Source of the DNA: a virus
Length of the DNA: 37,592 nt
IMG/VR virus record: IMGVR_UViG_3300045988_073962
Location: 1 to 37,592 of that record
Strand: one strand, 5' to 3'
Part shown: positions 1 through 37,592 of the stretch, in pieces
Position numbering within the stretch: the first letter of the stretch is position 1
How the letters are laid out: the number at the start of each line of letters is the position of its first letter
Made by a program: the position numbers and the translations under genes
The notes under the pieces: generated by a model
Databases searched by the model: none
What the model saw: the letters and a program-made list of their open reading frames with translations, nothing else
What the model was told of the DNA's origin: nothing

Positions 1-119
1 CCTTTTTTGTCGCCCTGATACACCACGACACACAGGAAGGAAGGTGAAGAATCGTGGCACGACTGACGAAGAAGAACGAAGTCTTCTGTGAAGAATATCT
101 GATCGACCTGAACGCGACC
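1..119. repeat. Left copy of a 119-bp terminal direct repeat (identical to 37474-37592)
   Basis: The string ccttttttgtcgccctgatacaccacg...gatcgacctgaacgcgacc is present at 1-119 and again at 37474-37592 with no mismatch. The repeat cuts through the terS coding region, as expected for a circular-assembly overlap. Confidence 0.95.
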
Positions 120-17642: not shown

Positions 17643-17902
17643 TCCCGTTCGCCTGTACGCCGTCGGAAACGTCGTGCCTGTTATCTAACCTATTCACCGA
17701 ACTTCGGCCCGTGTGCGGCCGCTGTGAGGGCGACAGCGTCGTTCTGTGCGGCCTGACCTATGAAGGGGAGGAACAGACCGTCGTCCTTCGGGACTACGGC
17801 TTCGACTATTCCGGCCGGCGCGAAACCGTTGACCTGATCAGAAAGCGAAGGTGTATCTATGGGAACAAGGCGCAATTTCCAGCGCAAAACGAACGGGACT
17901 GA
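17639..17902 (+). CDS. Hypothetical small Cys-containing protein (possible fibre-associated ORF)
   Basis: ATGA overlap with the tail fibre stop. It overlaps the avd start by 44 nt and has no recognisable motif. Confidence 0.3.
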   Translation: MIPFACTPSETSCLLSNLFTELRPVCGRCEGDSVVLCGLTYEGEEQTVVLRDYGFDYSGRRETVDLIRKRRCIYGNKAQFPAQNERD

Positions 17903-18335
17903 AAGTCCGCTTCACGTCCTTCCTGTGGCGTCGAAGCTGATCGACTACACCCTGGAACTGACCGACAACACGAAGCACTTCCCGAAGAAGGTCCGCTTCT
18001 CTATCGTGAACAGGATTCAGGACCGTGTTCTGGCGATCCGCGACGACCTGGTGGACGCGAACGAAATCTTCCCGATCCTGGACGAACAGGACAAGATCGA
18101 CCGGCTGAAACTTCAACGCCGCGCGCTGACAGGGTGCAAGAAACTTTTGTATCTGATCGAACTGTCGAAGAAGCGCGGCTACATCGACACGGGGACCTTC
18201 GACTATTGGACGAAGCTGACCCTGGACGTCAAGTTTATGACCGCCGCCTGGTATAAGGCCGAAACGGAGCCGAAGGAGCCGACCGAAAAGGCCGACGCCG
18301 AAGCCCCGGAGCCGGCCGCGCCGGCGGAAGGTTAA
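17859..18335 (+). CDS. avd: DGR accessory variability determinant (Avd, four-helix-bundle protein)
   Basis: 158 aa, basic and helical. The pattern ASKLIDYTLELTDNTKHFPKKVRFSIVNRIQDRVLAIRDDLVDAN resembles Avd/23S-IVS-family proteins. It lies immediately upstream of the TR and RT. Confidence 0.85.
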   Translation: MGTRRNFQRKTNGTESPLHVLPVASKLIDYTLELTDNTKHFPKKVRFSIVNRIQDRVLAIRDDLVDANEIFPILDEQDKIDRLKLQRRALTGCKKLLYLIELSKKRGYIDTGTFDYWTKLTLDVKFMTAAWYKAETEPKEPTEKADAEAPEPAAPAEG

Positions 18336-18359
18336 TTGAATATTAGGGTACGGCCTGAC

Positions 18360-18463
18360 CCCCGAACGCCGGCAACGCGAACAACGCGCGGAATGTCAAC
18401 ACCGACGGCAGTCTGAACAACAACAACGCCTGGAATGGCAACAACGGCGTCCGGCCGGATTTG
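18360..18463 (+). repeat. DGR template repeat (TR)
   Basis: A non-coding 104-bp segment between avd and the RT. It aligns without gaps to 20343-20446 and 32944-33046. Its 30 adenines sit mostly in AAC/AAT triplets, and the differences to both copies fall almost only on those adenines. Confidence 0.92.
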
Positions 18464-18627
18464 GTGGAAAACGTGACCGAGTAGGGCGACGAACCTGAAA
18501 GCAGAGGACCCCAACAAAGGAGGCCGTATCCTTCCCGACGCCGGAAAGGCCAGGGTAAACACATGACCGTCGACGCGAGGGCTTCGGCTACGACGCCCAG
18601 ACTATAAGCGACGGGGAGGTTTTTATT

Positions 18628-19758
18628 ATGAAAAGCGAAGTCACACAGACACCGCCTTCCGACTTCGCTGTCATGTCCGACTTCAACAACCTGTATCAGT
18701 CCTACCTGGACGCCCGGAAAGGGAAACGCTGGAAAATGGCGGTCGTCCGCTACGAAGTGAACGCGCTGGAAAACACCATGTTCCTTCACTATATGCTGAC
18801 ATCGAAGAAATACCGCCCTTCTCCATACAACACGTTTCTGATCCATGAACCGAAGGAAAGGGTGATCATGTATAACGGATTCAAGGACAAGATCGTCCAG
18901 CATAGCCTGTGCGACTATGTCCTGGGACCCGCGCTGTCGAAGTCGTTCATATATGACAATTACGCCAGTCAGGAAGGCAAAGGAACACACTTCGGCCTTG
19001 ACCGCCTGAAATATTTCATGCAGAAGTATTACAGGCAGAACGGGCCGGCCGGCTGGGTATTGAAATGCGATATAACAAAGTATTTCTACCGTATCAATCA
19101 CGACGTTTTGAAGTCACAGCTTCGTCGGCTGATCCACGATCCCGACGTCCTGTGGCTTCTTGATTTGATCATAGATTCCACCGAAGGAACGGGAATCCCG
19201 ATCGGAAATCACACTTCACAGTGGTTCGCGGTCCTGTACCTGTCCGGAATGGACCACATGATCAAAGAACGCCTGGGAATCAAGTTCTATGGCCGCTACA
19301 TGGACGACTTCTATTTGATTCACCAGGACAAGGACTATTTGATCTATTGCCTGGAAGAAATCAAGAAGTATCTGGTCCCCCTGGGCCTGGAACTAAATCA
19401 CAAAACCGCGATCTTCCCGCTGTCCCAGGGGATCGACTTCCTGGGATTCAGGACGTACATGACGGACAGTGGGAAGGTCGTCCGAAAAATACGCCGCGAC
19501 AGCAAGAACCGGATCAGGCGGAAATTGAAGAAGTTCCGTCACCTTTTGGACGAAGGCCGGATCACCTTCGACACGGTGGTCCAGTCCTATTCGTCATGGA
19601 CCGGTCACGCCGGCCACGGCAACAGTCACCACCTGATCAGGCAGATGGACGAACTGTTCTTCGACCTGTTCAAAAAAGAATTGGAGGAATACCATGTCAA
19701 AACGAATGTCGACGTTACCCGTTGGCGCGATCGTGAAGTCGGTCAATACGAAGTATAA
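18628..19758 (+). CDS. DGR reverse transcriptase
   Basis: 376 aa. It has the YMDD catalytic box (FYGRYMDDFYLIH) and the DGR-type motif 4 (IPIGNHTSQWFAVLYL). It sits next to Avd and the TR, with RBS GGGGAGG. Confidence 0.92.
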   Translation: MKSEVTQTPPSDFAVMSDFNNLYQSYLDARKGKRWKMAVVRYEVNALENTMFLHYMLTSKKYRPSPYNTFLIHEPKERVIMYNGFKDKIVQHSLCDYVLGPALSKSFIYDNYASQEGKGTHFGLDRLKYFMQKYYRQNGPAGWVLKCDITKYFYRINHDVLKSQLRRLIHDPDVLWLLDLIIDSTEGTGIPIGNHTSQWFAVLYLSGMDHMIKERLGIKFYGRYMDDFYLIHQDKDYLIYCLEEIKKYLVPLGLELNHKTAIFPLSQGIDFLGFRTYMTDSGKVVRKIRRDSKNRIRRKLKKFRHLLDEGRITFDTVVQSYSSWTGHAGHGNSHHLIRQMDELFFDLFKKELEEYHVKTNVDVTRWRDREVGQYEV

Positions 19759-21400
19759 CGGCGCTGTGATCCGCTTCGTTATTGGCCGCCAGGCTTCCGA
19801 TCGTGTCGGTCTGGTGACGGAAAAGATCATCACCCTGAAAGCCTTCGACGCGAAGGAGCCTTCCAACAGCAACAGCGACCGGAAGAATTACGGCAACAAC
19901 CGCGCCAGCGTGTCGAACATTCTTCTGTGGCTGAACAGCGCGGCGGCCGCCGGCGGCTGGTACACGGCCCAGCACAGCGCCGACGCCCCGCCCACGAACG
20001 CGAATGTCTGGTCCAACTATAACGAGTACGACCAGGAAGCCGGCTTCCTTTCCTTCTTTGAAGCGGACTTCCGGAACGCCCTTCTGGACGACACGATCAC
20101 CGTCGCGAAAAATACCGTCACCGACGGCGGCGGTTCAGAGCAGATCACGCGGAAGGTCCGCCTTCTGACCGAAACGGAAGTCGGCCTGGGCAACGAAAAC
20201 GGGATCGTCGAGGGGACCCAGTGGCCCCTGTTTACCGACGCAAACAGCCGGAAAGCATACCCGACGGCCGAAGCGGTCAGCAAGTCCGAATATACCAGTT
20301 CGAGCCTGAACGCTTCGTCCCCCTGGTGGTGGTGGCTTCTGACCCCGAACGCCGGCAACGCGTACAACGCGCGGCATGTCAACCTCGGCGGCAGTCTGAG
20401 CAACGACGGCGCCTGGGATGGCAACGGCGGCGTCCGGCCGGCTTTGTTTTTGGCCCCTGATACTCTGGTATCTGATACAACAGACACAGACGGGGCCTAT
20501 ATCATTCAGTGGAATCAACCGCCGACCACCCCTTCGAGTATTTCCCACGCGACCCCCCAGGCGGGAAAATCCCTGACGATCACGACCGGCGGGTCCACCG
20601 ATCCGGAAGGAAACGCGATCCAGTACGTCTGGGAACGCCGGGTCGATTCCGGAAACTATATCCAGATCGGGATCACAACGGCGAAGACGATCACCGACAC
20701 CGTCCCGACGTCCGGGACGAACTACCAGGTCCGCGTGAAAGCCGTTGACGCAAACGGCGCGGAATCGGCGTACAAAACCGGAACGGCCACGGCCATTTCC
20801 TACAACACCGCCCCCGTGATCAGTGGAAGCAATCAGAACGTCGGAGCGAAGACGGCCCCGCTGACCTATAACTACACGGTCACAGACGCCGAAGCGTCGT
20901 CCCAGACCTTGACCGTCACGGAAACCGTGACCAACGGGTCCGAAACAATCACCCTTCGCCAGTACACGGCCACAAGCGGCGCCCAGAACACGGCGGACCT
21001 GACGTCTGTGTGGCTTCGCCTTCTGGCCGGGACCCATGTCCTGAAAATCGTCGCTTCCGACGGCGTGGGCGGGACGGCCACACGACAGATCACATTCAGC
21101 CGGACCGTGAACAGGATCGCCGCGTCCCGCGCGATCAGTACCGACGCTATGGTGACGAAGGTCTTCCTGTCCCTGTACCCGGCGGACATTCCGGCCGACG
21201 CGGTCCTTCACTGTGAGGTCACGAACAACCCGTTCGACACGACCCCCGTCTGGGAAGATATTTCTTCCAAAGTCGGCCGCTTCGTCCACATTTTCCAGAA
21301 CACCACCGCCGCGAGGGGCTACGGCCTGGCCTACCGCTTCACGATCACGAAGGGGAATCAAACGGCCGAGGTCGTCCAGGCGACGGTCCGGTTCGCGTAA
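19694..21400 (+). CDS. DGR target protein 1 (N-terminal lectin-like variable domain, C-terminal FN3/Ig-like domains)
   Basis: 568 aa, with RBS GGAGGA 5 nt before ATG 19694. It contains VR1 (aa ~217-251, WWWWLLTPNAGNAYNARHVNLGGSLSNDGAWDGNGGVRPALFL), followed by FN3-like sequence (..YQVRVKAVDANGAESAY..). Confidence 0.88.
   Translation: MSKRMSTLPVGAIVKSVNTKYNGAVIRFVIGRQASDRVGLVTEKIITLKAFDAKEPSNSNSDRKNYGNNRASVSNILLWLNSAAAAGGWYTAQHSADAPPTNANVWSNYNEYDQEAGFLSFFEADFRNALLDDTITVAKNTVTDGGGSEQITRKVRLLTETEVGLGNENGIVEGTQWPLFTDANSRKAYPTAEAVSKSEYTSSSLNASSPWWWWLLTPNAGNAYNARHVNLGGSLSNDGAWDGNGGVRPALFLAPDTLVSDTTDTDGAYIIQWNQPPTTPSSISHATPQAGKSLTITTGGSTDPEGNAIQYVWERRVDSGNYIQIGITTAKTITDTVPTSGTNYQVRVKAVDANGAESAYKTGTATAISYNTAPVISGSNQNVGAKTAPLTYNYTVTDAEASSQTLTVTETVTNGSETITLRQYTATSGAQNTADLTSVWLRLLAGTHVLKIVASDGVGGTATRQITFSRTVNRIAASRAISTDAMVTKVFLSLYPADIPADAVLHCEVTNNPFDTTPVWEDISSKVGRFVHIFQNTTAARGYGLAYRFTITKGNQTAEVVQATVRFA
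20343..20446 (+). repeat. DGR variable repeat 1 (VR1)
   Basis: Gap-free alignment to the TR (offset 1983) gives 13 differences. Twelve are at TR adenines and one is at TR C18402. Confidence 0.92.
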
Positions 21401-21414
21401 AGGAGGGATTCACC

Positions 21415-21882
21415 ATGTTCAACCCTGAAACCTGTGACCACGTCAGCATGAAGGACGCCCAGGAGAAGGAGCGCCAGAACCCGGCGGCCCAGGCCGCCAG
21501 GGCCGCGTCGATCGCCTTCGTGTCCCTGGCCGAATCCGGCCAGATCGACGACGTCACGGCCACGGAAAACGTCAGTCAGTTCAGCCCGTGGGCCTACCCT
21601 GTCGCCTACAAGGCCGGGAATATCCGGGAGTTCGGCGGCGAACTGTTCCGCTGTGTCCAGGATCACACGTCACAAGCGGACTGGACCCCGACGGCGGCCG
21701 CGTCCCTGTGGACGAAGATCGGGGACCCCGGCGAGGAATGGCCGGCCTGGTCACAGCCTGTCGGCGCACACGACGCCTACAACGCCGGCGACAAAGTGTC
21801 CCACAACGGGAAACACTGGTCTTCGGACCTGGACGCGAACGTCTGGGAACCCGGCGTCTACGGCTGGACCGAACAGAACTAA
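21415..21882 (+). CDS. Carbohydrate-binding (CBM5/12-like) protein
   Basis: Two repeats of the aromatic pattern [31 protein letters not shown] and [31 protein letters not shown], typical of chitin-binding type-3 / CBM5_12 modules. Confidence 0.65.
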
Positions 21883-23895: not shown

Positions 23896-24381
23896 ATGGC
23901 GGTTCACAAAAAGGACCTGGCCCTGTTCACGGCCCAACTGCAAGCCCTGAAAGATGATATTCCGGAAATCATGGACACGATCGCCGTCGGCGAAGGCGTC
24001 TACGCCGTAAAACAGGCCCGGCTGATCTGCAAGAACGATTCCCCGGACATCGTCAACACCGGCGACTATCGGCGGAACTGGAAAAGCGACAGGCGGGCGC
24101 GTCGGAGCGGGAAGAAGTACATTATCCGGTTTTATAATCCGCTGGACTATGCCGGCCACCTGGAACACGGATTCCGAAGTCACTTCGTCCCTGGTCACTG
24201 GGAAGGCTTCACCTTCGTATATAGCCGGGACGATCCGGAAGGCGGAATGTTCGTCGGCCCGAAGGGCGGCTATGTGCGCGGCCATTTCACCATGAAACGG
24301 GCCGTCAAGCGGACCCTGGACACCCAACAGGCCAGAGTGACCCGGAAGATCGACAGGGCCATAAACAACCGCATGAAATGA
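23896..24381 (+). CDS. HK97 gp10-family tail-completion/neck protein (displaced from the structural module)
   Basis: 161 aa. The motifs IVNTGDYRRNW ... YNPLDYAGHLEHGF match the gp10-family TG-L/Y...YA..vE.G pattern. Confidence 0.6.
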   Translation: MAVHKKDLALFTAQLQALKDDIPEIMDTIAVGEGVYAVKQARLICKNDSPDIVNTGDYRRNWKSDRRARRSGKKYIIRFYNPLDYAGHLEHGFRSHFVPGHWEGFTFVYSRDDPEGGMFVGPKGGYVRGHFTMKRAVKRTLDTQQARVTRKIDRAINNRMK

Positions 24382-25809: not shown

Positions 25810-25831
25810 CTGTTCTATGGGAGGAATTACA

Positions 25832-26878
25832 ATGAAACGACGCAGATTCAAACACTTGTCCTGGGACGACCGTCTGAAAATCGAATCCGGCCTGAAACAC
25901 GGCGATCCCGTCCAGAAGATCGCGGACGACATCGGCGTCCACCGGAACACGATCTATAATGAGATCAAGCGCGGCCAGTATGAACACCTTAATTCTGATC
26001 TGACCACCGAAACCCGGTACAGTCCAGAGATAGCCGAAGCCGCGTACAGGGCGAACCTGGCGGCAAAGGGGCCGGACCTGAAAATCGGGTCCGATCGGCG
26101 CCTGGCCGAACACATCGAAAGCCGCATTGTAAACGACGGCTATTCCCCGGCGGCGGTCCTGGGTGAAATCAAGACCCAGGGGATCGAGTTCGACACGACG
26201 ATCTGTGAAGCGACATTGTATTCCTACATCAAGAAAGGCGTCTTCCTAAACCTGGAACAGTGTCACCTTCCCCGCAAGGGGAAGAAGAAGCGGTCCTATA
26301 CCCGCGTTCAGAAGAAGGCGGCCAAGGCGTCAGCGGGGACCAGTATCGAAAAGCGGCCCCCAGAGATCGACGACCGCGCCGAACTGGGCGACTGGGAAAT
26401 GGACTGTGTCGTCGGGAAGAAAAGGACGAAGGAAACCCTTCTGGTCCTGTCGGAGCGGAAAAGCCGGAAAGAAATCATCATCAAGATGAAGGACAAGACC
26501 GCCGACAGCGTCGTCCGCGCCCTGGATCGCCTTGAACGCCGCTATGGGGCTATGTTCAGCAAGGTCTTCCGGACGATCACCGTCGACAACGGGACGGAGT
26601 TTTCCGACGTGGAGGGCCTGGAACGGTCCTGTCTTCGCAAAGGCCAGAGCCGGACGAAGGTCTACTACTGCCACCCCTATTCTTCCTATGAGCGGGGAAC
26701 AAACGAAAATATAAACGGAATGATCCGCCGCTGGTTCCCGAAGGGGACCGACTTCGGGAAGGTCACGGCGAAGGCGATCAAGGCTGTCGAAGACTGGATC
26801 AACACCTATCCGCGCGGAATCCTGGGATTCTTCACAGCGGACGACATCTTCCTTCCCTGGGTCGCTTCCCTGGCCTGA
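25832..26878 (+). CDS. IS30-family DDE transposase
   Basis: It has an N-terminal HTH (LSWDDRLKIESGLKHGDPVQKIADDIGVHRNTIYNEIKRG). The catalytic signature is GDWEMD ... TVDNGTEF ... YERGTNENINGMIRRWFPKG. ATG 25832 follows GGGAGGA. I could not find terminal inverted repeats by eye. Confidence 0.88.
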   Translation: MKRRRFKHLSWDDRLKIESGLKHGDPVQKIADDIGVHRNTIYNEIKRGQYEHLNSDLTTETRYSPEIAEAAYRANLAAKGPDLKIGSDRRLAEHIESRIVNDGYSPAAVLGEIKTQGIEFDTTICEATLYSYIKKGVFLNLEQCHLPRKGKKKRSYTRVQKKAAKASAGTSIEKRPPEIDDRAELGDWEMDCVVGKKRTKETLLVLSERKSRKEIIIKMKDKTADSVVRALDRLERRYGAMFSKVFRTITVDNGTEFSDVEGLERSCLRKGQSRTKVYYCHPYSSYERGTNENINGMIRRWFPKGTDFGKVTAKAIKAVEDWINTYPRGILGFFTADDIFLPWVASLA

Positions 26879-27300: not shown

Positions 27301-27579
27301 GTGGGAAAGCAATACAAAGCAATAACTTTTGACGACCGGAAGACGATTGCTTCCATGTATGCGGACGGGGCGGTCGCGGCCGAAATCGCCGAAATGGTCG
27401 GCGTGTCGCGAACGTCAATCTATGCCGAATTGAAGCGCGGCCAGGACGGCGTCACCCTGGACAAGAACTTCCGGCCGGCCTACGACCCGGCCCTGGCCCA
27501 GAAGCGGGTCCAGGAAGGACTTCGCCGCCGGGGGCGAAAGGCCGAAGACATGGAGAAGGAGGAAACCGAAAATGTCTGA
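27301..27579 (+). CDS. Stand-alone IS30-type N-terminal HTH (HTH_38-like) protein; candidate regulator/recombination directionality factor
   Basis: GTG start after GAAGGTGA. ITFDDRKTIASMYADGAVAAEIAEMVGVSRTSIYAELKRGQ...FRPAYDPALAQ parallels the transposase N-terminus LSWDDRLKIESGLKHGDPVQKIADDIGVHRNTIYNEIKRGQ...TRYSPEIAE. Confidence 0.7.
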   Translation: MGKQYKAITFDDRKTIASMYADGAVAAEIAEMVGVSRTSIYAELKRGQDGVTLDKNFRPAYDPALAQKRVQEGLRRRGRKAEDMEKEETENV

Positions 27580-27751
27580 TACCTGTGGACGCTGTGGCCG
27601 TCGTCTGAAAAATCCGGCCTACATAGAAATCGGCTACGGCCGAACGTGCGCCGCGAAGCTGGGGATCGTCATTCCCCGGAAGCGTAAACCGAAGGGGCCG
27701 GCGCCGGACCGTGTCACCACCACGGCCGACCCGCCCACGGAAGGAAGGTGA
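27572..27751 (+). CDS. Small zinc-ribbon-like protein (CxxCGR...GxGxxC, DUF6011-like)
   Basis: Hand-translated 59-aa frame MSDTCGRCGRRLKNPAYIEIGYGRTCAAKLGIV.... It overlaps both neighbours by a few nt and is below the ORF-track cutoff. Confidence 0.55.
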   Translation: MSDTCGRCGRRLKNPAYIEIGYGRTCAAKLGIVIPRKRKPKGPAPDRVTTTADPPTEGR

Positions 27752-28125
27752 TCGCCGTGAAGTGGAAGATCACCACCCAGGAAAGGAACGCCCTGGTCGA
27801 AGCACATCTGGGCTGTATCTGGTGGACGATCAACAAAAACCGCCGCCTGATCAGTGTTGTCGGCCTGGAAGACGACGACGTCTTCCAACAGTTAGCGATC
27901 CGCATGATCCACGCGATCGAGAACTTCGACCCCGACAAGGGAAAGGACCTGGAACAGCACATCTTCGCACAGCTTCAATATGAAGTCCTGAACTGCAAGG
28001 ACGCCGCGAGGGTGTACGGGATCAAGGGCGCCCCGTATGGAGCGCGGGACCTGGTCGTTTCAATGGACGCCCTGATCGAAGACGGGCGTCAGTTCGCGCG
28101 GGGGGGGGGTGGCTTAAATGCCTAA
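27748..28125 (+). CDS. Sigma-70 region-2-like protein (truncated sigma/anti-sigma-like early regulator)
   Basis: ALVEAHLGCIWWTINKNRRL...LEDDDVFQQLAIRMIHAIENFDPDKGKDLEQHIFAQLQYEVLN follows the sigma-70 r2 pattern (..hl.lV...a......eDl.Q.g...L..a...fdp..g..f..y). No region 4 is present. Confidence 0.6.
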   Translation: MIAVKWKITTQERNALVEAHLGCIWWTINKNRRLISVVGLEDDDVFQQLAIRMIHAIENFDPDKGKDLEQHIFAQLQYEVLNCKDAARVYGIKGAPYGARDLVVSMDALIEDGRQFARGGGGLNA

Positions 28126-31262: not shown

Positions 31263-32123
31263 GTGAACCCGATCAGCGAAGTTTTACAGAAAATGGCGAC
31301 ACCGGTTCAAAATCGGGGCGACTTCACCGACGCCGAAGGCTTCCTGTGCTGTGGGGCCTGTGGTGAGCGAAAGGAAATGGACGTCAACGTCCCGACCGAT
31401 CTTCGCCCTTCCGGCGTCATGCGGGTCCGGCGGAATTGCCGCTGTGAGCGGGAACGGTATGAAGCCCAGGAGAAGGCCAGGCGGGAACAGGACTTTCAAA
31501 CCCGCATGGAACACCTTCGCCGTGACGGGATCACGGACCCGGCCTATTTGAAATACACCTTCGGCCAGGACGACCGCCGGAACCCGGAAGTCAGCGACGT
31601 CTGTCTGAAATACGTCCAGAACTGGGACGACATGAAGGCGGACAACATCGGAATCCTGTTCTATGGCGACGTCGGGACCGGGAAGTCCTTCCTGGCCTGT
31701 TGTATCGCGAACGCCCTTCTGGGTCGCCTGGTCAGTGTCAGCGTCACCAACTTCCCGCGAATCCTGAACACGCTTCAAGGGACCTTCGACGACGAACGCC
31801 AGAAGCGGATCGACCGCCTTCAACAGTATTCCCTTCTGGTGATCGACGACCTGGGGGTCGAGCGGGACACGGCGTTTTCCGTCGAACAGGTCTACAACGT
31901 GATCGACACCAGGGCCAGGTCCGGGAAGCCCCTGATCGTCACGACGAACCTGTCCATGAAAGACCTTCAAAACCCGCCTACCCTGGCCCATAGCCGAATC
32001 TATGACCGCGTCCTGGAAATGTGTCCGATCCGGCTGAAACTGACCGGGGAATCCCGGAGAGTAAGCAACGCGAACGACCGGAAGGACAAGGCGCGGCGCC
32101 TTCTGGGCCTGGAAGGGGCGTGA
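31263..32123 (+). CDS. DnaC/IstB-like AAA+ helicase loader
   Basis: Walker A (FYGDVGTGKSFLA) and Walker B (LLVIDDLGVE) are present. GTG 31263 follows GAAAGGGGGTGA. The upstream part of ORF 31092-32123 overlaps the previous gene. Confidence 0.88.
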   Translation: MNPISEVLQKMATPVQNRGDFTDAEGFLCCGACGERKEMDVNVPTDLRPSGVMRVRRNCRCERERYEAQEKARREQDFQTRMEHLRRDGITDPAYLKYTFGQDDRRNPEVSDVCLKYVQNWDDMKADNIGILFYGDVGTGKSFLACCIANALLGRLVSVSVTNFPRILNTLQGTFDDERQKRIDRLQQYSLLVIDDLGVERDTAFSVEQVYNVIDTRARSGKPLIVTTNLSMKDLQNPPTLAHSRIYDRVLEMCPIRLKLTGESRRVSNANDRKDKARRLLGLEGA

Positions 32124-32125
32124 CT

Positions 32126-32536
32126 ATGAGGAAGTACAAACTGACGATCCCTGGGATTCTCCCAGGGCTGAACGAATACATCGACGCGGAACGGTCCTAT
32201 AAGGGCAAATACAAGGCCGCGTCCATGAAGAAGCAAGCCCAGAACGTGATCGGCTACATGGTGAAGACCCAACTTCGGGGGGTCCGCTTCACCCGCCCCG
32301 TGGTGATCCATTACCTGTGGATCGAGCCGAGCCGCCGGCGCGACAAGGACAACGTCGCGTTTGCGAAGAAGTTCATTCAGGACGCCCTGGTGGAAGGCGG
32401 CGTCCTTCGGAATGACGGCTGGGCCGAAATTGAGCATTTCACAGACGACTTCGCCGTGGACCCGAAGAACCCCCGCGTCGAAGTCACGATCGAAGAATAT
32501 GAAGGAGGAAAACACAATGGTAAAAGTAAAAATTAA
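32126..32536 (+). CDS. rusA: RusA-family Holliday junction resolvase
   Basis: 136 aa from ATG 32126. The segment RRRDKDNVAFAKKFIQDALVEGGVLRNDGW matches the RusA D-x-DN ... D-x-L ... DD catalytic pattern. Confidence 0.8.
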   Translation: MRKYKLTIPGILPGLNEYIDAERSYKGKYKAASMKKQAQNVIGYMVKTQLRGVRFTRPVVIHYLWIEPSRRRDKDNVAFAKKFIQDALVEGGVLRNDGWAEIEHFTDDFAVDPKNPRVEVTIEEYEGGKHNGKSKN

Positions 32537-33200
32537 GGACCTGGCGCCCGGCGCCTTCTTCGACATCGGCCCCGTGAAGGTCAAGGTCATGGAACACTTC
32601 GCGGACGGGAAAACCCTTCTGACGGCCACGGAGCCGATCGGGAACCGCCCCTTCACCGTCCGCCCCTTCACCTACAAGCGCCAGGACCCGGAGCCGAATC
32701 CGAACGACTTCCGGTTCAGCACCTTGAAGGACGACCTAAACACCGACTTCCTGGCGGCCGTGGCCGCCGGCGGCGTGATCCCGGTCGACCGGATTCTGGA
32801 CGCGGCCTGGGACCTGACCGCCAGCGACGGCGTGAACCGTTACGGCTATGTGACCTGTAAGGTCGCTATGCTTCCCGAAACACTGGTCCGGAGATACTAC
32901 GACGCCGGCCTGTTGGAGATCGACGACTGGGAATGGACAATCACCCCGAACGCCGGCAACGCGTACTACGCGCGGCATGTATACACCGACGGCAGTCTGA
33001 TCTACTACGGCGCCTGGGGTGGCAACTACGGCGTCCGGCCGGCTTTATTCGTGGATTCTGACATCTGCCTGTCGCTGGAACAGGACGAAGTCGATCTGTC
33101 GAATCAGGCCCTTCTGGGTGAGTTCACGTCAAAGGAACTGGTCACAGAAGTCCTTCGCCGGATCGCCGCCGGCGAGAAGGACCCGGACGAAGACGAATGA
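32517..33200 (+). CDS. DGR target protein 2 (small, non-structural-module protein carrying VR2)
   Basis: ATG 32517 lies 8 nt after GGAGG, giving 227 aa. It contains WEWTITPNAGNAYYARHVYTDGSLIYYGAWGGNYGVRPALFV, in-frame with the TR-homologous DNA. There is no N-terminal hydrophobic segment. Confidence 0.85.
   Translation: MVKVKIKDLAPGAFFDIGPVKVKVMEHFADGKTLLTATEPIGNRPFTVRPFTYKRQDPEPNPNDFRFSTLKDDLNTDFLAAVAAGGVIPVDRILDAAWDLTASDGVNRYGYVTCKVAMLPETLVRRYYDAGLLEIDDWEWTITPNAGNAYYARHVYTDGSLIYYGAWGGNYGVRPALFVDSDICLSLEQDEVDLSNQALLGEFTSKELVTEVLRRIAAGEKDPDEDE
32944..33046 (+). repeat. DGR variable repeat 2 (VR2), remote from the cassette
   Basis: Gap-free alignment to the TR (offset 14584) gives 14 internal differences. 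Thirteen are at TR adenines and one is at TR C18397, a synonymous GTC-to-GTA change. Confidence 0.9.
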
Positions 33201-33475
33201 TCGCGTCCGACGCCTTAAAGGCCAGGGTCGAAGAAGAAGTCGGGACCGACCTGTGTCCCCCCTTCTTCGACCTGGTCGAACAGAGAGCGCGGCGGAAGCT
33301 GGACTGGATCAACGGGCAAGCTGGCCGGGCCTACGGCGAAGACGGCTGCGGCGACGAATACCTGGTGATCCTGGCGGTCGAAGCGGTCCGGGAAATGGCC
33401 TTTTCCTTCTGGTGTGAGATCAAGAGCGCGGAAAACATAGCCGCCAGAGCCGCCGGAAAGGTGGTGGCGGAGTGA
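33197..33475 (+). CDS. Hypothetical protein
   Basis: 92-aa ORF with an ATGA overlap with the upstream gene. Confidence 0.5.
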   Translation: MIASDALKARVEEEVGTDLCPPFFDLVEQRARRKLDWINGQAGRAYGEDGCGDEYLVILAVEAVREMAFSFWCEIKSAENIAARAAGKVVAE

Positions 33476-34764: not shown

Positions 34765-35478
34765 ATGAAACCGATTTATGAACCGAAGGGACGCGCCGGC
34801 GAATATGGGGACTTCGCGGTCAACATATATTCCGGCTGTCCACATCGTTGTTACTATTGTTTTGCGCCCCAGGTCCTACACCGTGAGCGCGAACAGTTCC
34901 ATTCGCAAGTCGAGCCGCGCGCCGGGATCGTCGACGCTGTGAAACGCCAGCTTGAAAAGGACGCTATTTCCGGGAAGCTGATTCACCTTTGCTTCACCTG
35001 TGACCCGTACCCGGCCGGGGCGGACACCACGGCGACGCGGGAGATCATCAAGGCCATAAAGGCCGCCGGAAACAATGTCCAGATATTGACGAAGGGCGAC
35101 GGACGGCGCGACTTCGATCTTCTGGGCCGTGGCGACTGGTACGGCGTAACCTATTCTTGCGACGACACAATGGCAAGAACGAAAGAACCTGGCGCCGCCA
35201 GCCCGTCGACCCGGCTTCTGTGCCTGGAAGCGGCAAAAGCCGCCGGGATCAAAACCTGGGTATCTTTTGAACCTGTCCTTGACGCCCAGGCCGTTCTGAC
35301 CTGTATCAGAGATCGCGCCGGAATTATCGACAAGGCCAAAATCGGGAAACTGAACTACTGGCCGTCGGACATCGACTGGCGATCCTTCGGACGCGCCGCC
35401 GAAATGGCCTGTCAGGAAGCCGGCCTGGACTACTACATCAAAGAAGACCTACGAAAGAAAATGGAGGAAGCCACATGA
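34765..35478 (+). CDS. Radical SAM enzyme (CxxxCxxC; SplB/COG1533-like N-terminus)
   Basis: NIYSGCPHRCYYCFAP is a canonical radical-SAM 4Fe-4S binding motif. 237 aa, RBS AAAAGGAGGAAG. Confidence 0.8.
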   Translation: MKPIYEPKGRAGEYGDFAVNIYSGCPHRCYYCFAPQVLHREREQFHSQVEPRAGIVDAVKRQLEKDAISGKLIHLCFTCDPYPAGADTTATREIIKAIKAAGNNVQILTKGDGRRDFDLLGRGDWYGVTYSCDDTMARTKEPGAASPSTRLLCLEAAKAAGIKTWVSFEPVLDAQAVLTCIRDRAGIIDKAKIGKLNYWPSDIDWRSFGRAAEMACQEAGLDYYIKEDLRKKMEEAT

Positions 35479-36791: not shown

Positions 36792-37301
36792 ATGGACGCA
36801 AAACAGACCAAGCGGGACAGCGTGGAGAAGACCACCGGCCGCGTTTATGACATCTTGAAGAACCACGACCAGGAAACCCGGACGATCGAAGCCCAGATCG
36901 ACGCAGAGCGCGCCGCCCTGGAAGAAGACCTGGCCGAAATCCGGTCCAGAGCATACCCGCGCGGGGTCCGCTATGACACGCCGCGCGTCCAGTCGTCCCC
37001 TGACCCTGACGGGATTCTTGTGAAGGTCGCCGCCGCGATCGAGCGCCGGACAGACCGGACGAAAAGAGCCGTCGCCGCCCTGGAAGAACGACAGCGCCAG
37101 ATCGAGCGCGTACACGACGCCGTCCTGGACATGGACGCGAAGTCGAAGATCGTCCTTCTGACGCTATACTACCCGCGCCGGACCTATGAACAGGCCGCCG
37201 AAGCCCTGGGCGTCGACGTGTCAACCGTCAGCCGTCAGAGGAAGACCGCCGTCGACCGGCTGACCCGGAAACTGATCCGCCTGTATGGGGAAATCAAATG
37301 A
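36792..37301 (+). CDS. Late-gene transcriptional regulator with a sigma-70 region-4-like HTH (RinA/ArpU-like position)
   Basis: C-terminal KIVLLTLYYPRRTYEQAAEALGVDVSTVSRQRKTAVDRLTRKL follows the sigma r4 / LuxR-type HTH pattern. It is the last gene before terS. Confidence 0.65.
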   Translation: MDAKQTKRDSVEKTTGRVYDILKNHDQETRTIEAQIDAERAALEEDLAEIRSRAYPRGVRYDTPRVQSSPDPDGILVKVAAAIERRTDRTKRAVAALEERQRQIERVHDAVLDMDAKSKIVLLTLYYPRRTYEQAAEALGVDVSTVSRQRKTAVDRLTRKLIRLYGEIK

Positions 37302-37393: not shown

Positions 37394-37451
37394 AAAGTGG
37401 TATATGGGAACCTTGCCCCGGTTCCCCCTCCTTTTTCATAGGGGCGCAAAG

Positions 37452-37481
37452 AAGGAACGTCTTCACCGGCGTTCCTTTTTT
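37452..37481 (+). terminator. Hairpin plus T6 immediately upstream of terS (terminator-like leader structure)
   Basis: aaggaacg-(10-nt loop)-cgttcctt followed by tttt. It is preceded by a second hairpin, gggaacc-ttgcccc-ggttccc, at 37406-37426. Confidence 0.55.
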
Positions 37482-37592
37482 GTCGCCCTGATACACCACG
37501 ACACACAGGAAGGAAGGTGAAGAATCGTGGCACGACTGACGAAGAAGAACGAAGTCTTCTGTGAAGAATATCTGATCGACCTGAACGCGACC
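37474..37592. repeat. Right copy of the 119-bp terminal direct repeat (it re-reads the terS upstream region and first codons)
   Basis: Exact identity to 1-119 by direct reading. Confidence 0.95.

What the first reader, a model, noticed from the sequence alone, without database searches (positions are those of the whole stretch)
32517..33200. Second, remote DGR target: a small protein in the early/replication module carries VR2
The same TR matches 32944-33046 without gaps, 14.6 kb from the cassette. There are 14 internal differences, 13 of them at TR adenines, and the substitution set differs from VR1 (mostly AAC to TAC, giving a Tyr-rich YYARHVYTDGSLIYYGAWGGNYG surface). So one RT/TR apparently diversifies two genes. 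The host ORF is only 227 aa and has no hydrophobic N-terminus. It sits between RusA and unknown early genes, not among virion genes, whereas known phage DGR targets are receptor-binding tail proteins. A diversified protein expressed with replication genes suggests a different role, such as binding a variable host factor or defence component or acting in superinfection. That role is inference. Both targets share the framework W-W-x-x-T-P-N-A-G-N-A ... G-V-R-P-A-L-F and an upstream layout that reminds me of the clostridial WWLRSP...GVRPAL domain family (DUF6273 as I recall it; unverified).
Basis: partly seen in the sequence, partly recalled or inferred. Interest (0 to 1): 0.88.

Follow-up and report, generated by a model that had tools for sequence, protein, structure and literature searches.

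The report
Second, remote DGR target in phage
A gut-bacterial phage uses one mutagenic reverse-transcriptase cassette to diversify two genes, and the second is a small lectin-like protein encoded among the replication genes; this second target is real and active, but the same two-target arrangement has already been published for related gut phages.

Summary
TR (18360-18462) matches 32944-33046 without gaps. There are 14 mismatches, 13 at TR adenines (P about 1e-7). The match lies in a 227-aa ORF (32517-33200) that overlaps the end of rusA.

VR2 is not a fossil. In four related contigs that carry both the cassette and the gene, VR2 differs from its own TR only at adenines (12/12, 18/18, 22/22, 21/21). 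Non-adenine TR changes are copied into both VRs. In 118 near-identical metagenomic homologues, entropy is 2.2 bits at the TR-adenine codons and 0.06 elsewhere.

The protein is a single DUF6273 (C-type-lectin-like) domain plus a C-terminal helix (model pLDDT 93).

The architecture is published: tentaclin plus small "tgt2" target (Baykov 2023, phages nd4/nd12), Toutatisvirus (Egorov & Atkinson 2024), Lelie/CP11 (Gulyaeva 2024). Shimadzu has an analogous distal small target that reads show is diversified (Cornuault 2019). A counter-defence reading was floated in Nature 2025.

What remains open is function. The small target sits in the early/replication block in every lineage I examined, which the papers proposing a receptor-binding role do not discuss. 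This is a new member of a known kind, of moderate interest.

The parts
17859..18335 (+). Avd accessory variability determinant of the DGR
   Evidence: phrog_3206 'Avd protein of DGR' E 4e-26; weak bAvd/23S_rRNA_IVP Pfam hits
18360..18462 (+). Template repeat (TR). It has 30 adenines, mostly in AAC codons, and is in frame with both VRs. The IMH*-like sequence follows from 18459.
18628..19758 (+). DGR reverse transcriptase
   Evidence: RVT_1 E 2e-17; phrog_1423 E 3e-135
19694..21400 (+). Target 1, a tentaclin-type protein of 568 aa: N-terminal DUF6273 domain followed by Ig-like domains
   Evidence: DUF6273 E 1e-27; full-length match to phrog_10993 'Hoc-like head decoration' E 3e-202. The architecture is as described in PMC10743442.
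20343..20445 (+). VR1, with 13 mismatches to TR, 12 at adenines
   Evidence: P 6e-7
32517..33200 (+). Target 2, a tgt2-type protein of 227 aa: a single DUF6273 / C-type-lectin-like domain plus a C-terminal helix and acidic tail
   Evidence: phrog_9958 E 7e-44, full length. DUF6273 23.4 bits against a cutoff of 23.5. AlphaFold model pLDDT 93.3. Foldseek hits to 9qa6 (DUF6273 N-terminal domain, E 3.5e-6) and to phage DUF6273 proteins.
32944..33046 (+). VR2, covering aa 143-177. It has 16 diversified codons on a beta-hairpin (strands 151-155 and 161-165) and its flanking loops.
33028..33075 (+). GC-rich 3' end of VR2 (GGCGTCCGGCCGG) plus an IMH-like flank. VR1 and VR2 share this flank; the TR does not.
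   Evidence: The small downstream hairpins are not conserved.
32021..32536 (+). RusA-like resolvase gene. Its 3' end overlaps the T2 start by 20 nt.
   Evidence: synteny in 14 of 14 relatives
33197..33475 (+). Unknown 92-aa gene. Its ATG overlaps the T2 stop (ATGA), and it always follows T2 in relatives.

Best explanation
The window is the complete genome (37,473 bp) of a temperate phage of Lawsonibacter asaccharolyticus. It carries one diversity-generating retroelement (Avd, TR, RT). By the established DGR mechanism, TR RNA is reverse-transcribed with adenine-specific errors, and the cDNA replaces homologous variable repeats that end in a GC-rich/IMH sequence. Two genes carry such a repeat. 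One is the adjacent tentaclin-type protein (VR1). The other is a small protein 14.6 kb away (VR2). Both are being diversified in nature. The small protein is a member of the published 'tgt2' class. It is a single DUF6273 (C-type-lectin-like) domain whose VR-encoded beta-hairpin and flanking loops form a variable, Tyr/Ser/Asn/Asp/Gly-rich ligand-binding surface. Its gene is embedded in, and probably co-translated with, the early recombination/replication operon (Erf, replication initiator, DnaC, RusA, T2), upstream of the late sigma-like regulator. My inference (about 50%) is that it is made early and acts as a free binding protein against a variable host or competitor molecule, rather than as a canonical tail receptor-binding protein. 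The published alternative, a virion-associated Mtd-like adhesin, is nearly as likely.
For: Shown:
- The TR/VR2 match and its adenine bias.
- In four related contigs VR2 differs from its cognate TR only at adenines (12/12, 18/18, 22/22, 21/21). Non-A changes in the TR appear in both VRs, which means ongoing homing to both sites.
- In 118 homologues at 92-96% identity, entropy is 2.22 bits at TR-A codons and 0.058 elsewhere. More than 1,250 database clusters match the protein.
- Against close relatives, differences are concentrated in the VR, at TR-A positions (11 of 12 and 16 of 18).
- Both VRs share a 3' flank that differs from the TR's.
- Fold: pLDDT 93.3. The best PDB hit is the DUF6273 N-terminal domain of IgA peptidase, with weak C-type lectin and Lcl hits. 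BFVD hits are phage DUF6273 proteins.
- Family: phrog_9958. Identity to nd4 tgt2 is 33%. Toutatis gp24 matches with hhalign probability 99.9%.
- Host: an identical-length homologue lies in a prophage of L. asaccharolyticus.

Evidence for the early context:
- Module map.
- Start/stop overlaps with both neighbours.
- No promoter- or terminator-like site next to the gene; a strong terminator-like site occurs only at 37406-37426, before TerS.
- The order Erf-RepIni-DnaC-RusA-T2-g33197 holds in 14 of 14 relatives.
- The homologue also sits in the early block in nd4 and nd12. In Toutatis it lies between DNA methyltransferases and the replication initiator/antiterminator Q. The analogous Shimadzu orf43 lies between a methyltransferase and Erf.
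Against: There is no direct evidence on expression timing or localisation. Gene position is weak evidence here, because an HK97 gp10-like tail-completion gene lies after the lysis cassette. DUF6273 domains also occur in large proteins labelled receptor-binding, tail-collar or tail endopeptidase, and all experimentally characterised phage DGR targets are virion-exposed. The T2 C-terminal helix could be a virion-docking element. The Pfam score is 0.1 bit below the gathering cutoff, so domain membership rests on fold and profile comparisons. A surface hairpin is inferred from the secondary structure and from published models of homologues (PMC10743442).
Confidence: 0.9

Rival explanations
1. T2 is a virion-associated accessory adhesin or receptor-binding protein, Mtd-like in function. 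It would be encoded away from the tail genes and dock on the particle through its C-terminal helix. The DGR would then diversify two external binding surfaces. This is the reading favoured in the published papers.
For: Published hypothesis (PMC10743442; bioRxiv 10.1101/2024.10.15.618418). The DUF6273 fold recurs in proteins labelled RBP, tail-collar or tail endopeptidase. T2 shares the TR-encoded loop library with tentaclin. Structural genes can be displaced in this genome (gp10-like gene at 23896-24381).
Against: No virion-attachment domain is recognisable. The protein is a single domain with only a short helix. It has no signal peptide. The gene is embedded in and overlaps replication/recombination genes in at least four independent lineages, upstream of the late regulator or antiterminator Q. 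Baykov et al. themselves note that it lacks the beta-prism and beta-sandwich domains by which Mtd attaches.
Confidence: 0.4
2. VR2 is a relic. It would be a paralogous DUF6273 segment resembling the TR because of shared ancestry with target 1, and no longer subject to mutagenic homing.
For: VR1 and VR2 share 6 identical substitutions relative to the TR in this genome. Both proteins share the domain, so some similarity is expected from homology alone.
Against: In relatives whose TR has diverged at non-A positions, VR2 carries the same non-A changes, with 0 non-A mismatches in four contigs. Population variation is confined to TR-A codons. Outside the 103-nt repeat, T1 and T2 are barely alignable at the DNA level.
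Confidence: 0.02
3. T2 is a soluble lectin released at lysis, or secreted by an unrecognised route. It would bind gut mucus, immunoglobulin or bacterial surfaces as a 'public good', and would be neither part of the virion nor an intracellular effector.
For: The only solved DUF6273 domain is the N-terminal domain of a gut-bacterial IgA peptidase (PMC12402451). Baykov et al. speculate on binding to intestinal or immune cells, but for tentaclins rather than for tgt2. The diversified surface is Tyr/Ser-rich and antibody-like.
Against: A released protein is not physically linked to the genome that encodes it, so selection on variants would be weak. There is no signal peptide. The function of the IgA-peptidase N-terminal domain was not established in the passages I read.
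Confidence: 0.08

Closest known systems
nd4_tgt2 / nd12_tgt2, the second DGR targets of gut phages nd4 and nd12 (Baykov et al. 2023, Int J Mol Sci, PMC10743442)
   Same: Small protein (234 and 294 aa) made of a single DUF6273/C-lec domain with flanking helices. The VR is at the 3' end and encodes a beta-hairpin. It shares one TR with a tentaclin first target that carries VR1 in its N-terminal domain. The cassette order is Avd-TR-RT-tentaclin, and the second target is about 10-12 kb away among early genes. The window protein is 33% and 31% identical to these.
   Different: The phage lineage and host differ (Lawsonibacter versus a Flavonifractor-like host for nd4). Here the gene is coupled to rusA, whereas in nd4 it precedes a gene annotated 'DNA polymerase III alpha subunit'. 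nd12_tgt2 has an extra N-terminal helical motif (DUF3310-like).
Faecalibacterium phage FP_Toutatis gp24 and the 'small DGR target' of Lelie/CP11 (Egorov & Atkinson 2024 bioRxiv 10.1101/2024.10.15.618418; Gulyaeva et al. 2024, PMC11792537)
   Same: Homologous small DUF6273 protein (hhalign 99.9%, 27% identity). It is a remote VR, reported as 17,480 nt from the TR. The first target is annotated Hoc-like. It lies in the early region between DNA methyltransferases and the replication initiator/antiterminator Q. It is reported as a core gene present in 98.8% of the genus.
   Different: The Toutatis DGR lies in a variable hotspot and is absent from about a third of the genus while the target persists. 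I did not test whether that also holds in the window's lineage.
Roseburia phage Shimadzu orf43 (Cornuault et al. 2019, bioRxiv 10.1101/575076)
   Same: Small protein (209 aa) of unknown function with VR2 at its C-terminus, 13.9 kb from the TR, sitting between a DNA methyltransferase and Erf in the replication module. Reads from virions showed DGR-type mutations at both VRs, which is experimental evidence of activity.
   Different: The first target is a tail-fibre gene upstream of Avd, not a tentaclin. orf43 shows only partial, weak profile similarity to the T2 family (94.6% probability over 70 columns; no BLASTP similarity).
Bordetella phage BPP-1 Mtd (the archetypal phage DGR target)
   Same: C-type-lectin-fold variable domain with the VR at the C-terminal end of the domain. 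Adenine-specific diversification from a TR next to Avd/RT, with a GC-rich/IMH element at the 3' end of the VR.
   Different: Mtd is a 381-aa trimeric tail-fibre tip protein with beta-prism and beta-sandwich attachment domains, encoded next to the cassette. T2 is a single domain, remote, in the early block, and has no sequence or Foldseek match to Mtd.

Membership tests
Diversity-generating retroelement (DGR) target / variable repeat | VR nearly identical to a TR located next to an RT, with differences essentially confined to TR adenines | tested here: met
   13 of 14 mismatches fall at adenines, P 1.3e-7. In four relatives 73 of 73 VR2 mismatches fall at adenines of the cognate TR.
Diversity-generating retroelement (DGR) target / variable repeat | Cassette components present: RT of the DGR clade, accessory Avd, and a TR between them | tested here: met
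   phrog_3206 Avd 4e-26; RVT_1 2e-17 and phrog_1423 3e-135; TR at 18360-18462 between the two genes
Diversity-generating retroelement (DGR) target / variable repeat | Ongoing diversification (population heterogeneity at TR-A positions only) | tested here: met
   Entropy 2.22 versus 0.058 bits in 118 homologues. TR non-A changes are mirrored in VR2. Within-sample read heterogeneity was not testable.
Diversity-generating retroelement (DGR) target / variable repeat | IMH at the 3' end of the VR distinct from IMH* of the TR, plus a downstream hairpin/cruciform as in BPP-1 | tested here: inconclusive
   The GC-rich GGCGTCCGGCCGG is followed by a flank that VR1 and VR2 share (about 20 of 31 nt) and the TR lacks. 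The candidate 4-5-bp hairpins are not conserved and show no covariation.
Pfam DUF6273 (PF19789) | HMM score at or above the gathering cutoff (23.5 bits) | tested here: inconclusive
   T2 scores 23.4 bits, E 6e-5, matching only the last 43 profile positions. Many 92-96% identical homologues are precomputed as PF19789. T1 scores 97.6 bits.
Pfam DUF6273 (PF19789) | Same fold as established DUF6273 domains | tested here: met
   Foldseek against 9qa6 (IgA peptidase, whose N-terminal domain is DUF6273 per PMC12402451): E 3.5e-6, TMq 0.57. The top BFVD hits are 'DUF6273 domain-containing protein', E 5e-9 to 1e-5. The PDB profile search gives 9qa6_A at 2.7e-5.
C-type lectin fold | Significant structural match to solved C-type lectin domains | tested here: inconclusive
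tgt2-type small DGR target (Baykov et al. 2023) / phrog_9958 | Small single-domain DUF6273 protein with the VR at the C-terminal end of the domain, paired with a tentaclin first target on one TR | tested here: met
   phrog_9958 7e-44, full length. tblastn against nd4 and nd12 gives 2e-16 and 4e-11. T1 matches the tentaclin-type phrog_10993 at 3e-202. The same TR/VR1/VR2 layout is found in nd4 and nd12.
Phage receptor-binding / virion protein | Presence in virions, or a recognisable virion-attachment domain, or location in the tail module | tested here: not met
   No match to a structural family; the one 'head and packaging' PHROG hit (phrog_10993) covers only the VR segment shared with T1. The protein is a single domain plus a helix. 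It lies in the replication block. Physical presence in virions is not testable with these tools.

The most novel reading that the evidence does not exclude
The tgt2-type small DUF6273 targets are not virion proteins at all. They would be early-expressed, cytoplasmic 'phage antibodies'. In this reading the DGR diversifies an intracellular binder that neutralises or senses a variable host factor, such as a defence system component or a competing prophage protein. This would explain why the gene sits in the replication/recombination or methyltransferase block in at least four phage lineages that otherwise share little.
Probability: 0.3. Interest if true: 0.75.

Novelty: new member of a known kind. 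Interest (0 to 1): 0.33.

Why it matters
The finding adds a well-documented example of a DGR that diversifies two different proteins from one template. It comes from a Lawsonibacter phage lineage that is abundant in public gut metagenomes: the protein matched more than 1,250 database clusters, and the 120 best were all 92-96% identical VR variants. It shows that both targets track their own TR. The wider point is not new, and it remains unresolved. In every lineage examined, the small second target is encoded among early/replication genes rather than virion genes. If that reflects function, phage DGRs would be diversifying something other than host-receptor recognition. That would broaden the accepted role of DGRs in phages and would suggest a natural scaffold for evolving intracellular binders. 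Virion proteomics or transcript timing on an inducible lysogen (L. asaccharolyticus, or Faecalibacterium phage Lelie) would settle it.

Tried and rejected
1. The first structure prediction used a shallow alignment (62 sequences from two tight clusters) and failed, with pLDDT 38.7. It was replaced by an alignment containing 50%-cluster representatives, which gave pLDDT 93.3.
2. I proposed small hairpins 3' of the VRs (GATAC-tctg-GTATC after VR1, GACA-tctgcc-TGTC after VR2) as BPP-1-like cruciform elements. They are not conserved in relatives and are not recovered by DNA folding, so I dropped them.
I used annotated GenBank records (nd4, nd12, Shimadzu, Toutatis) for context instead.
4. BLASTP between Shimadzu orf43 and T2 found no similarity. 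Only a partial profile match exists, so I treat it as an analogue, not a demonstrated family member.
5. The promoter/terminator scan gave no informative site near T2. It is negative evidence only.
6. I considered the fossil-VR and paralogy explanation and rejected it.
7. I looked for a functional clue in the IgA-peptidase DUF6273 domain (PMC12402451). The passages I retrieved did not define its role.
8. Pfam, PHROGs and the PDB sequence search gave no hint of enzymatic or DNA-binding function for T2.

Full report

Yes.
- A repeat search over the whole window returns one three-copy family in register: 18359-18477, 20342-20460 and 32943-33061.
- The first copy is adenine-rich (30 A in its 103-nt core, mostly AAC codons). 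It lies between an Avd gene (17859-18335; phrog_3206, 4e-26) and a reverse transcriptase (18628-19758; RVT_1, 2e-17; phrog_1423, 3e-135), so it is the template repeat.
- TR 18360-18462 aligns without gaps to 32944-33046 with 14 mismatches, 13 of them at TR adenines. The exception is a synonymous GTC>GTA change.
- The chance that at least 13 of 14 random mismatches fall on the 30 adenines is 1.3e-7.
- VR1 (20343-20445) has 13 mismatches, 12 at adenines.
- Both VRs are read in the same frame relative to the TR.
- The host ORF runs from ATG 32517 to TGA 33200 (227 aa) with a GGAGGA 8 nt upstream. It overlaps the end of rusA by 20 nt, and its stop overlaps the next ATG.

**2. Is VR2 active or a fossil?**

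It is active. Three results show this.
- IMG/VR holds 14 loci with a homologue of the 227-aa protein (66-93% identity) and 34 loci with the RT. Four contigs carry both. In these, VR2 differs from its own TR at 12, 18, 22 and 21 positions, and every one is a TR adenine.
- In the more distant contigs the TR has changed at non-adenine positions (for example ACC>TCC, GCG>GTG, CCTGG>CGTAC). The same changes are present in both VR1 and VR2 of that contig. That pattern requires continuing template-to-target transfer at both sites.
- The large protein database returned 1,250 clusters, and the best 120 are all 92-96% identical. In the 118 that are exactly 227 aa, mean column entropy is 2.22 bits at the 17 codons containing a TR adenine and 0.058 bits elsewhere.

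Codon 176 (TR GAT, VR GCT) is invariant in all VRs, so it marks the IMH/IMH* boundary rather than a diversified site.

Against the two closest relatives, 11 of 12 and 16 of 18 differences inside the VR lie at TR-adenine positions. The difference rate is 3-6 times higher inside the VR than outside.

**3. What is the protein?**

- Pfam gives DUF6273 for target 1 (1e-27). For the 227-aa protein the score is 0.1 bit below the cutoff (6e-5) and covers only the VR-encoded end of the domain.
- PHROGs places the protein full-length in phrog_9958 (unknown function, 7e-44). Target 1 matches phrog_10993 ('Hoc-like head decoration', 3e-202).
- A first AlphaFold run on a shallow alignment failed. A run on an alignment that included 50%-cluster representatives gave pLDDT 93.3 and pTM 0.85.
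- The model is one globular alpha/beta domain (residues 1-190) followed by a helix (205-217) and an acidic tail.
- The diversified residues (145-171) fall on a beta-hairpin (strands 151-155 and 161-165) and the loops on either side.
- The only significant PDB match is the Thomasclavelia ramosa IgA peptidase (9qa6, E 3.5e-6). Its N-terminal domain is annotated DUF6273 (PMC12402451).
- Classical C-type lectins and the Legionella Lcl domain appear only as weak hits.
- In the viral structure library the top hits are phage 'DUF6273 domain-containing proteins'. Some are small, and others are parts of large proteins labelled receptor-binding or tail proteins.

**4. Genomic setting**

- The window is a circularly closed phage genome (119-nt terminal overlap).
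- Its modules run in this order: packaging, head and contractile tail (to 17.6 kb); the DGR with tentaclin (17.9-21.4 kb); a CBM5/12 protein, endolysin and holin; an immunity region with a DDE (IS30-like) recombinase. The early block follows: exonuclease, Erf, replication initiator, DnaC-like loader, RusA, the 227-aa target, several unknown genes, a radical-SAM protein and a sigma-70 region-4 regulator. A strong terminator-like hairpin sits just before the small terminase gene.
- A homologue of the same length lies in a prophage of Lawsonibacter asaccharolyticus next to ftsZ, which identifies the host.
- The order Erf, RepIni, DnaC, RusA, T2, g33197 is kept in all 14 relatives, and the T2 stop abuts the next start.

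**5. Comparison with what is known**

GenBank phages nd4 and nd12 give the only annotated matches. I verified that each has the same TR/VR1/VR2 layout with adenine-specific differences. These two phages are the subject of Baykov et al. 2023 (PMC10743442).
- That paper describes exactly this architecture. The first target has an N-terminal DUF6273/C-lec domain and Ig-like domains (named tentaclin). The second is a small single-domain DUF6273 target (tgt2) with the VR at its 3' end, forming a surface beta-hairpin.
- The authors propose that tgt2 acts like Mtd.
- Their text contains no mention of 'replication' or 'early'.

Other published cases:
- Egorov and Atkinson (bioRxiv 10.1101/2024.10.15.618418) report the same pair in Toutatisvirus, with the second gene 17,480 nt from the TR and present in 98.8% of the genus. 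Toutatis gp24 is a clear homologue of the window protein (hhalign 99.9%). It lies between DNA methyltransferases and the replication initiator/antiterminator Q.
- Gulyaeva et al. (PMC11792537) describe 'large and small' DUF6273 targets in Lelie and CP11, with variation at both VRs of CP11 across cognate genomes; Lelie showed no read-level peaks.
- Cornuault et al. (bioRxiv 10.1101/575076) showed by sequencing reads that both VRs of Roseburia phage Shimadzu are mutated. Its second target, orf43, is a 209-aa protein between a methyltransferase and Erf. It shows only partial similarity to this family.
- A 2025 Nature paper (PMC12629997) notes four gut prophage species with distal second VRs near counter-defence genes and links them to the phage-host arms race.

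**6. Mechanism and what remains open**

- Shown: one cassette, two targets, both active in nature, and the fold and family of the second target.
- Established knowledge of DGRs supplies the rest of the mechanism: adenine-specific error-prone reverse transcription of TR RNA by RT-Avd, and IMH-directed replacement of the VR.
- The cis requirements are only partly visible. A GC-rich end plus a flank shared by the two VRs, but not by the TR, is present. Conserved hairpins are not.
- The site of action of the small protein is inferred. It is consistently placed in the early block in at least four lineages that otherwise share little, it is translationally coupled to rusA, and it lacks any attachment domain or signal peptide. 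These points favour an early, non-virion binder.
- On the other side, DUF6273 domains occur in tail and RBP proteins, the protein has a C-terminal helix, this genome has a displaced virion gene (gp10-like, 23896-24381), and every characterised phage DGR target is virion-exposed. These points keep the virion-adhesin reading nearly as likely.

**7. Verdict**

The finding is correct and well supported. It is not new in kind. It is a new member, in a Lawsonibacter phage, of a published two-target DGR architecture, and the idea of a non-receptor role has been voiced in print. Its residual interest is the unanswered question of what the early-encoded small target binds.

Noticed in passing
window 1-119 and 37474-37592: An exact 119-nt terminal direct repeat. 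The contig is a circularly closed genome of 37,473 bp (probably an assembler overlap), so the 'ends' of the window are arbitrary.
   Followed up: partly
window 25817-26878; L053 4813-5091: An IS30-like DDE transposase (HTH_38 + rve; phrog_4646, 4e-148) sits where an integrase would be, and I recognised no tyrosine or serine integrase among the ORFs I scanned. In the Lawsonibacter asaccharolyticus prophage the first phage gene next to host ftsZ matches window gene 27301-27579 in size (92 aa) and domain (HTH_38). That suggests the junction falls between 26878 and 27301, beside this transposase. Phage nd12 has an IS30-family transposase in a comparable position (after the lysis genes, among the early genes). 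It may be the phage's integration enzyme.
   Followed up: partly
window 23896-24381: An HK97 gp10-like tail-completion/Neck1 gene (PF04883; phrog_5) lies after the endolysin/holin cassette, outside the main structural block. It shows that gene position is an imperfect guide to virion membership in this phage.
   Followed up: no
window 27748-28125 and 36792-37301: Two separate small proteins carry sigma-70 pieces. A region-2-like match lies early in the early block (weak, below cutoff). A region-4 protein is the last gene before the small terminase, followed by a strong terminator-like hairpin at 37406-37426. This may be a late-gene regulator or a split sigma arrangement.
   Followed up: no
window 34765-35478: A radical SAM protein (PF04055, 1.8e-8; CxxxCxxC motif; phrog_13321) lies in the early block downstream of the DGR target. 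Its function is unknown.
   Followed up: no
window 21415-21882: A 155-aa protein with two CBM_5_12 carbohydrate-binding modules lies immediately downstream of the tentaclin gene and upstream of the endolysin.
   Followed up: no
L054 49048-49200 (Toutatis gp80); L050 19605-19757 (nd4): In public records the DGR template repeat is annotated as a protein-coding gene ('DUF6273 domain-containing protein' in Toutatis, 'hypothetical protein' in nd4). This is an annotation artefact caused by the TR resembling the VR-encoding part of the targets.
   Followed up: no
(nd4 tgt2 homologues): Some 90%-identity clusters of the nd4-type small target hold thousands of member sequences (for example 33,878 in one cluster). 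This points to extreme abundance and variant richness of this protein in public gut metagenomes.
   Followed up: no
window 18380, 18392, 18425-18426, 18434 versus VR1 and VR2: VR1 and VR2 of this genome share five identical adenine substitutions besides the IMH-boundary one. They overlap at 8 mutated positions, against about 4.5 expected by chance. This may reflect common structural constraints (for example Gly at T2 residue 165) or a shared homing history.
   Followed up: partly
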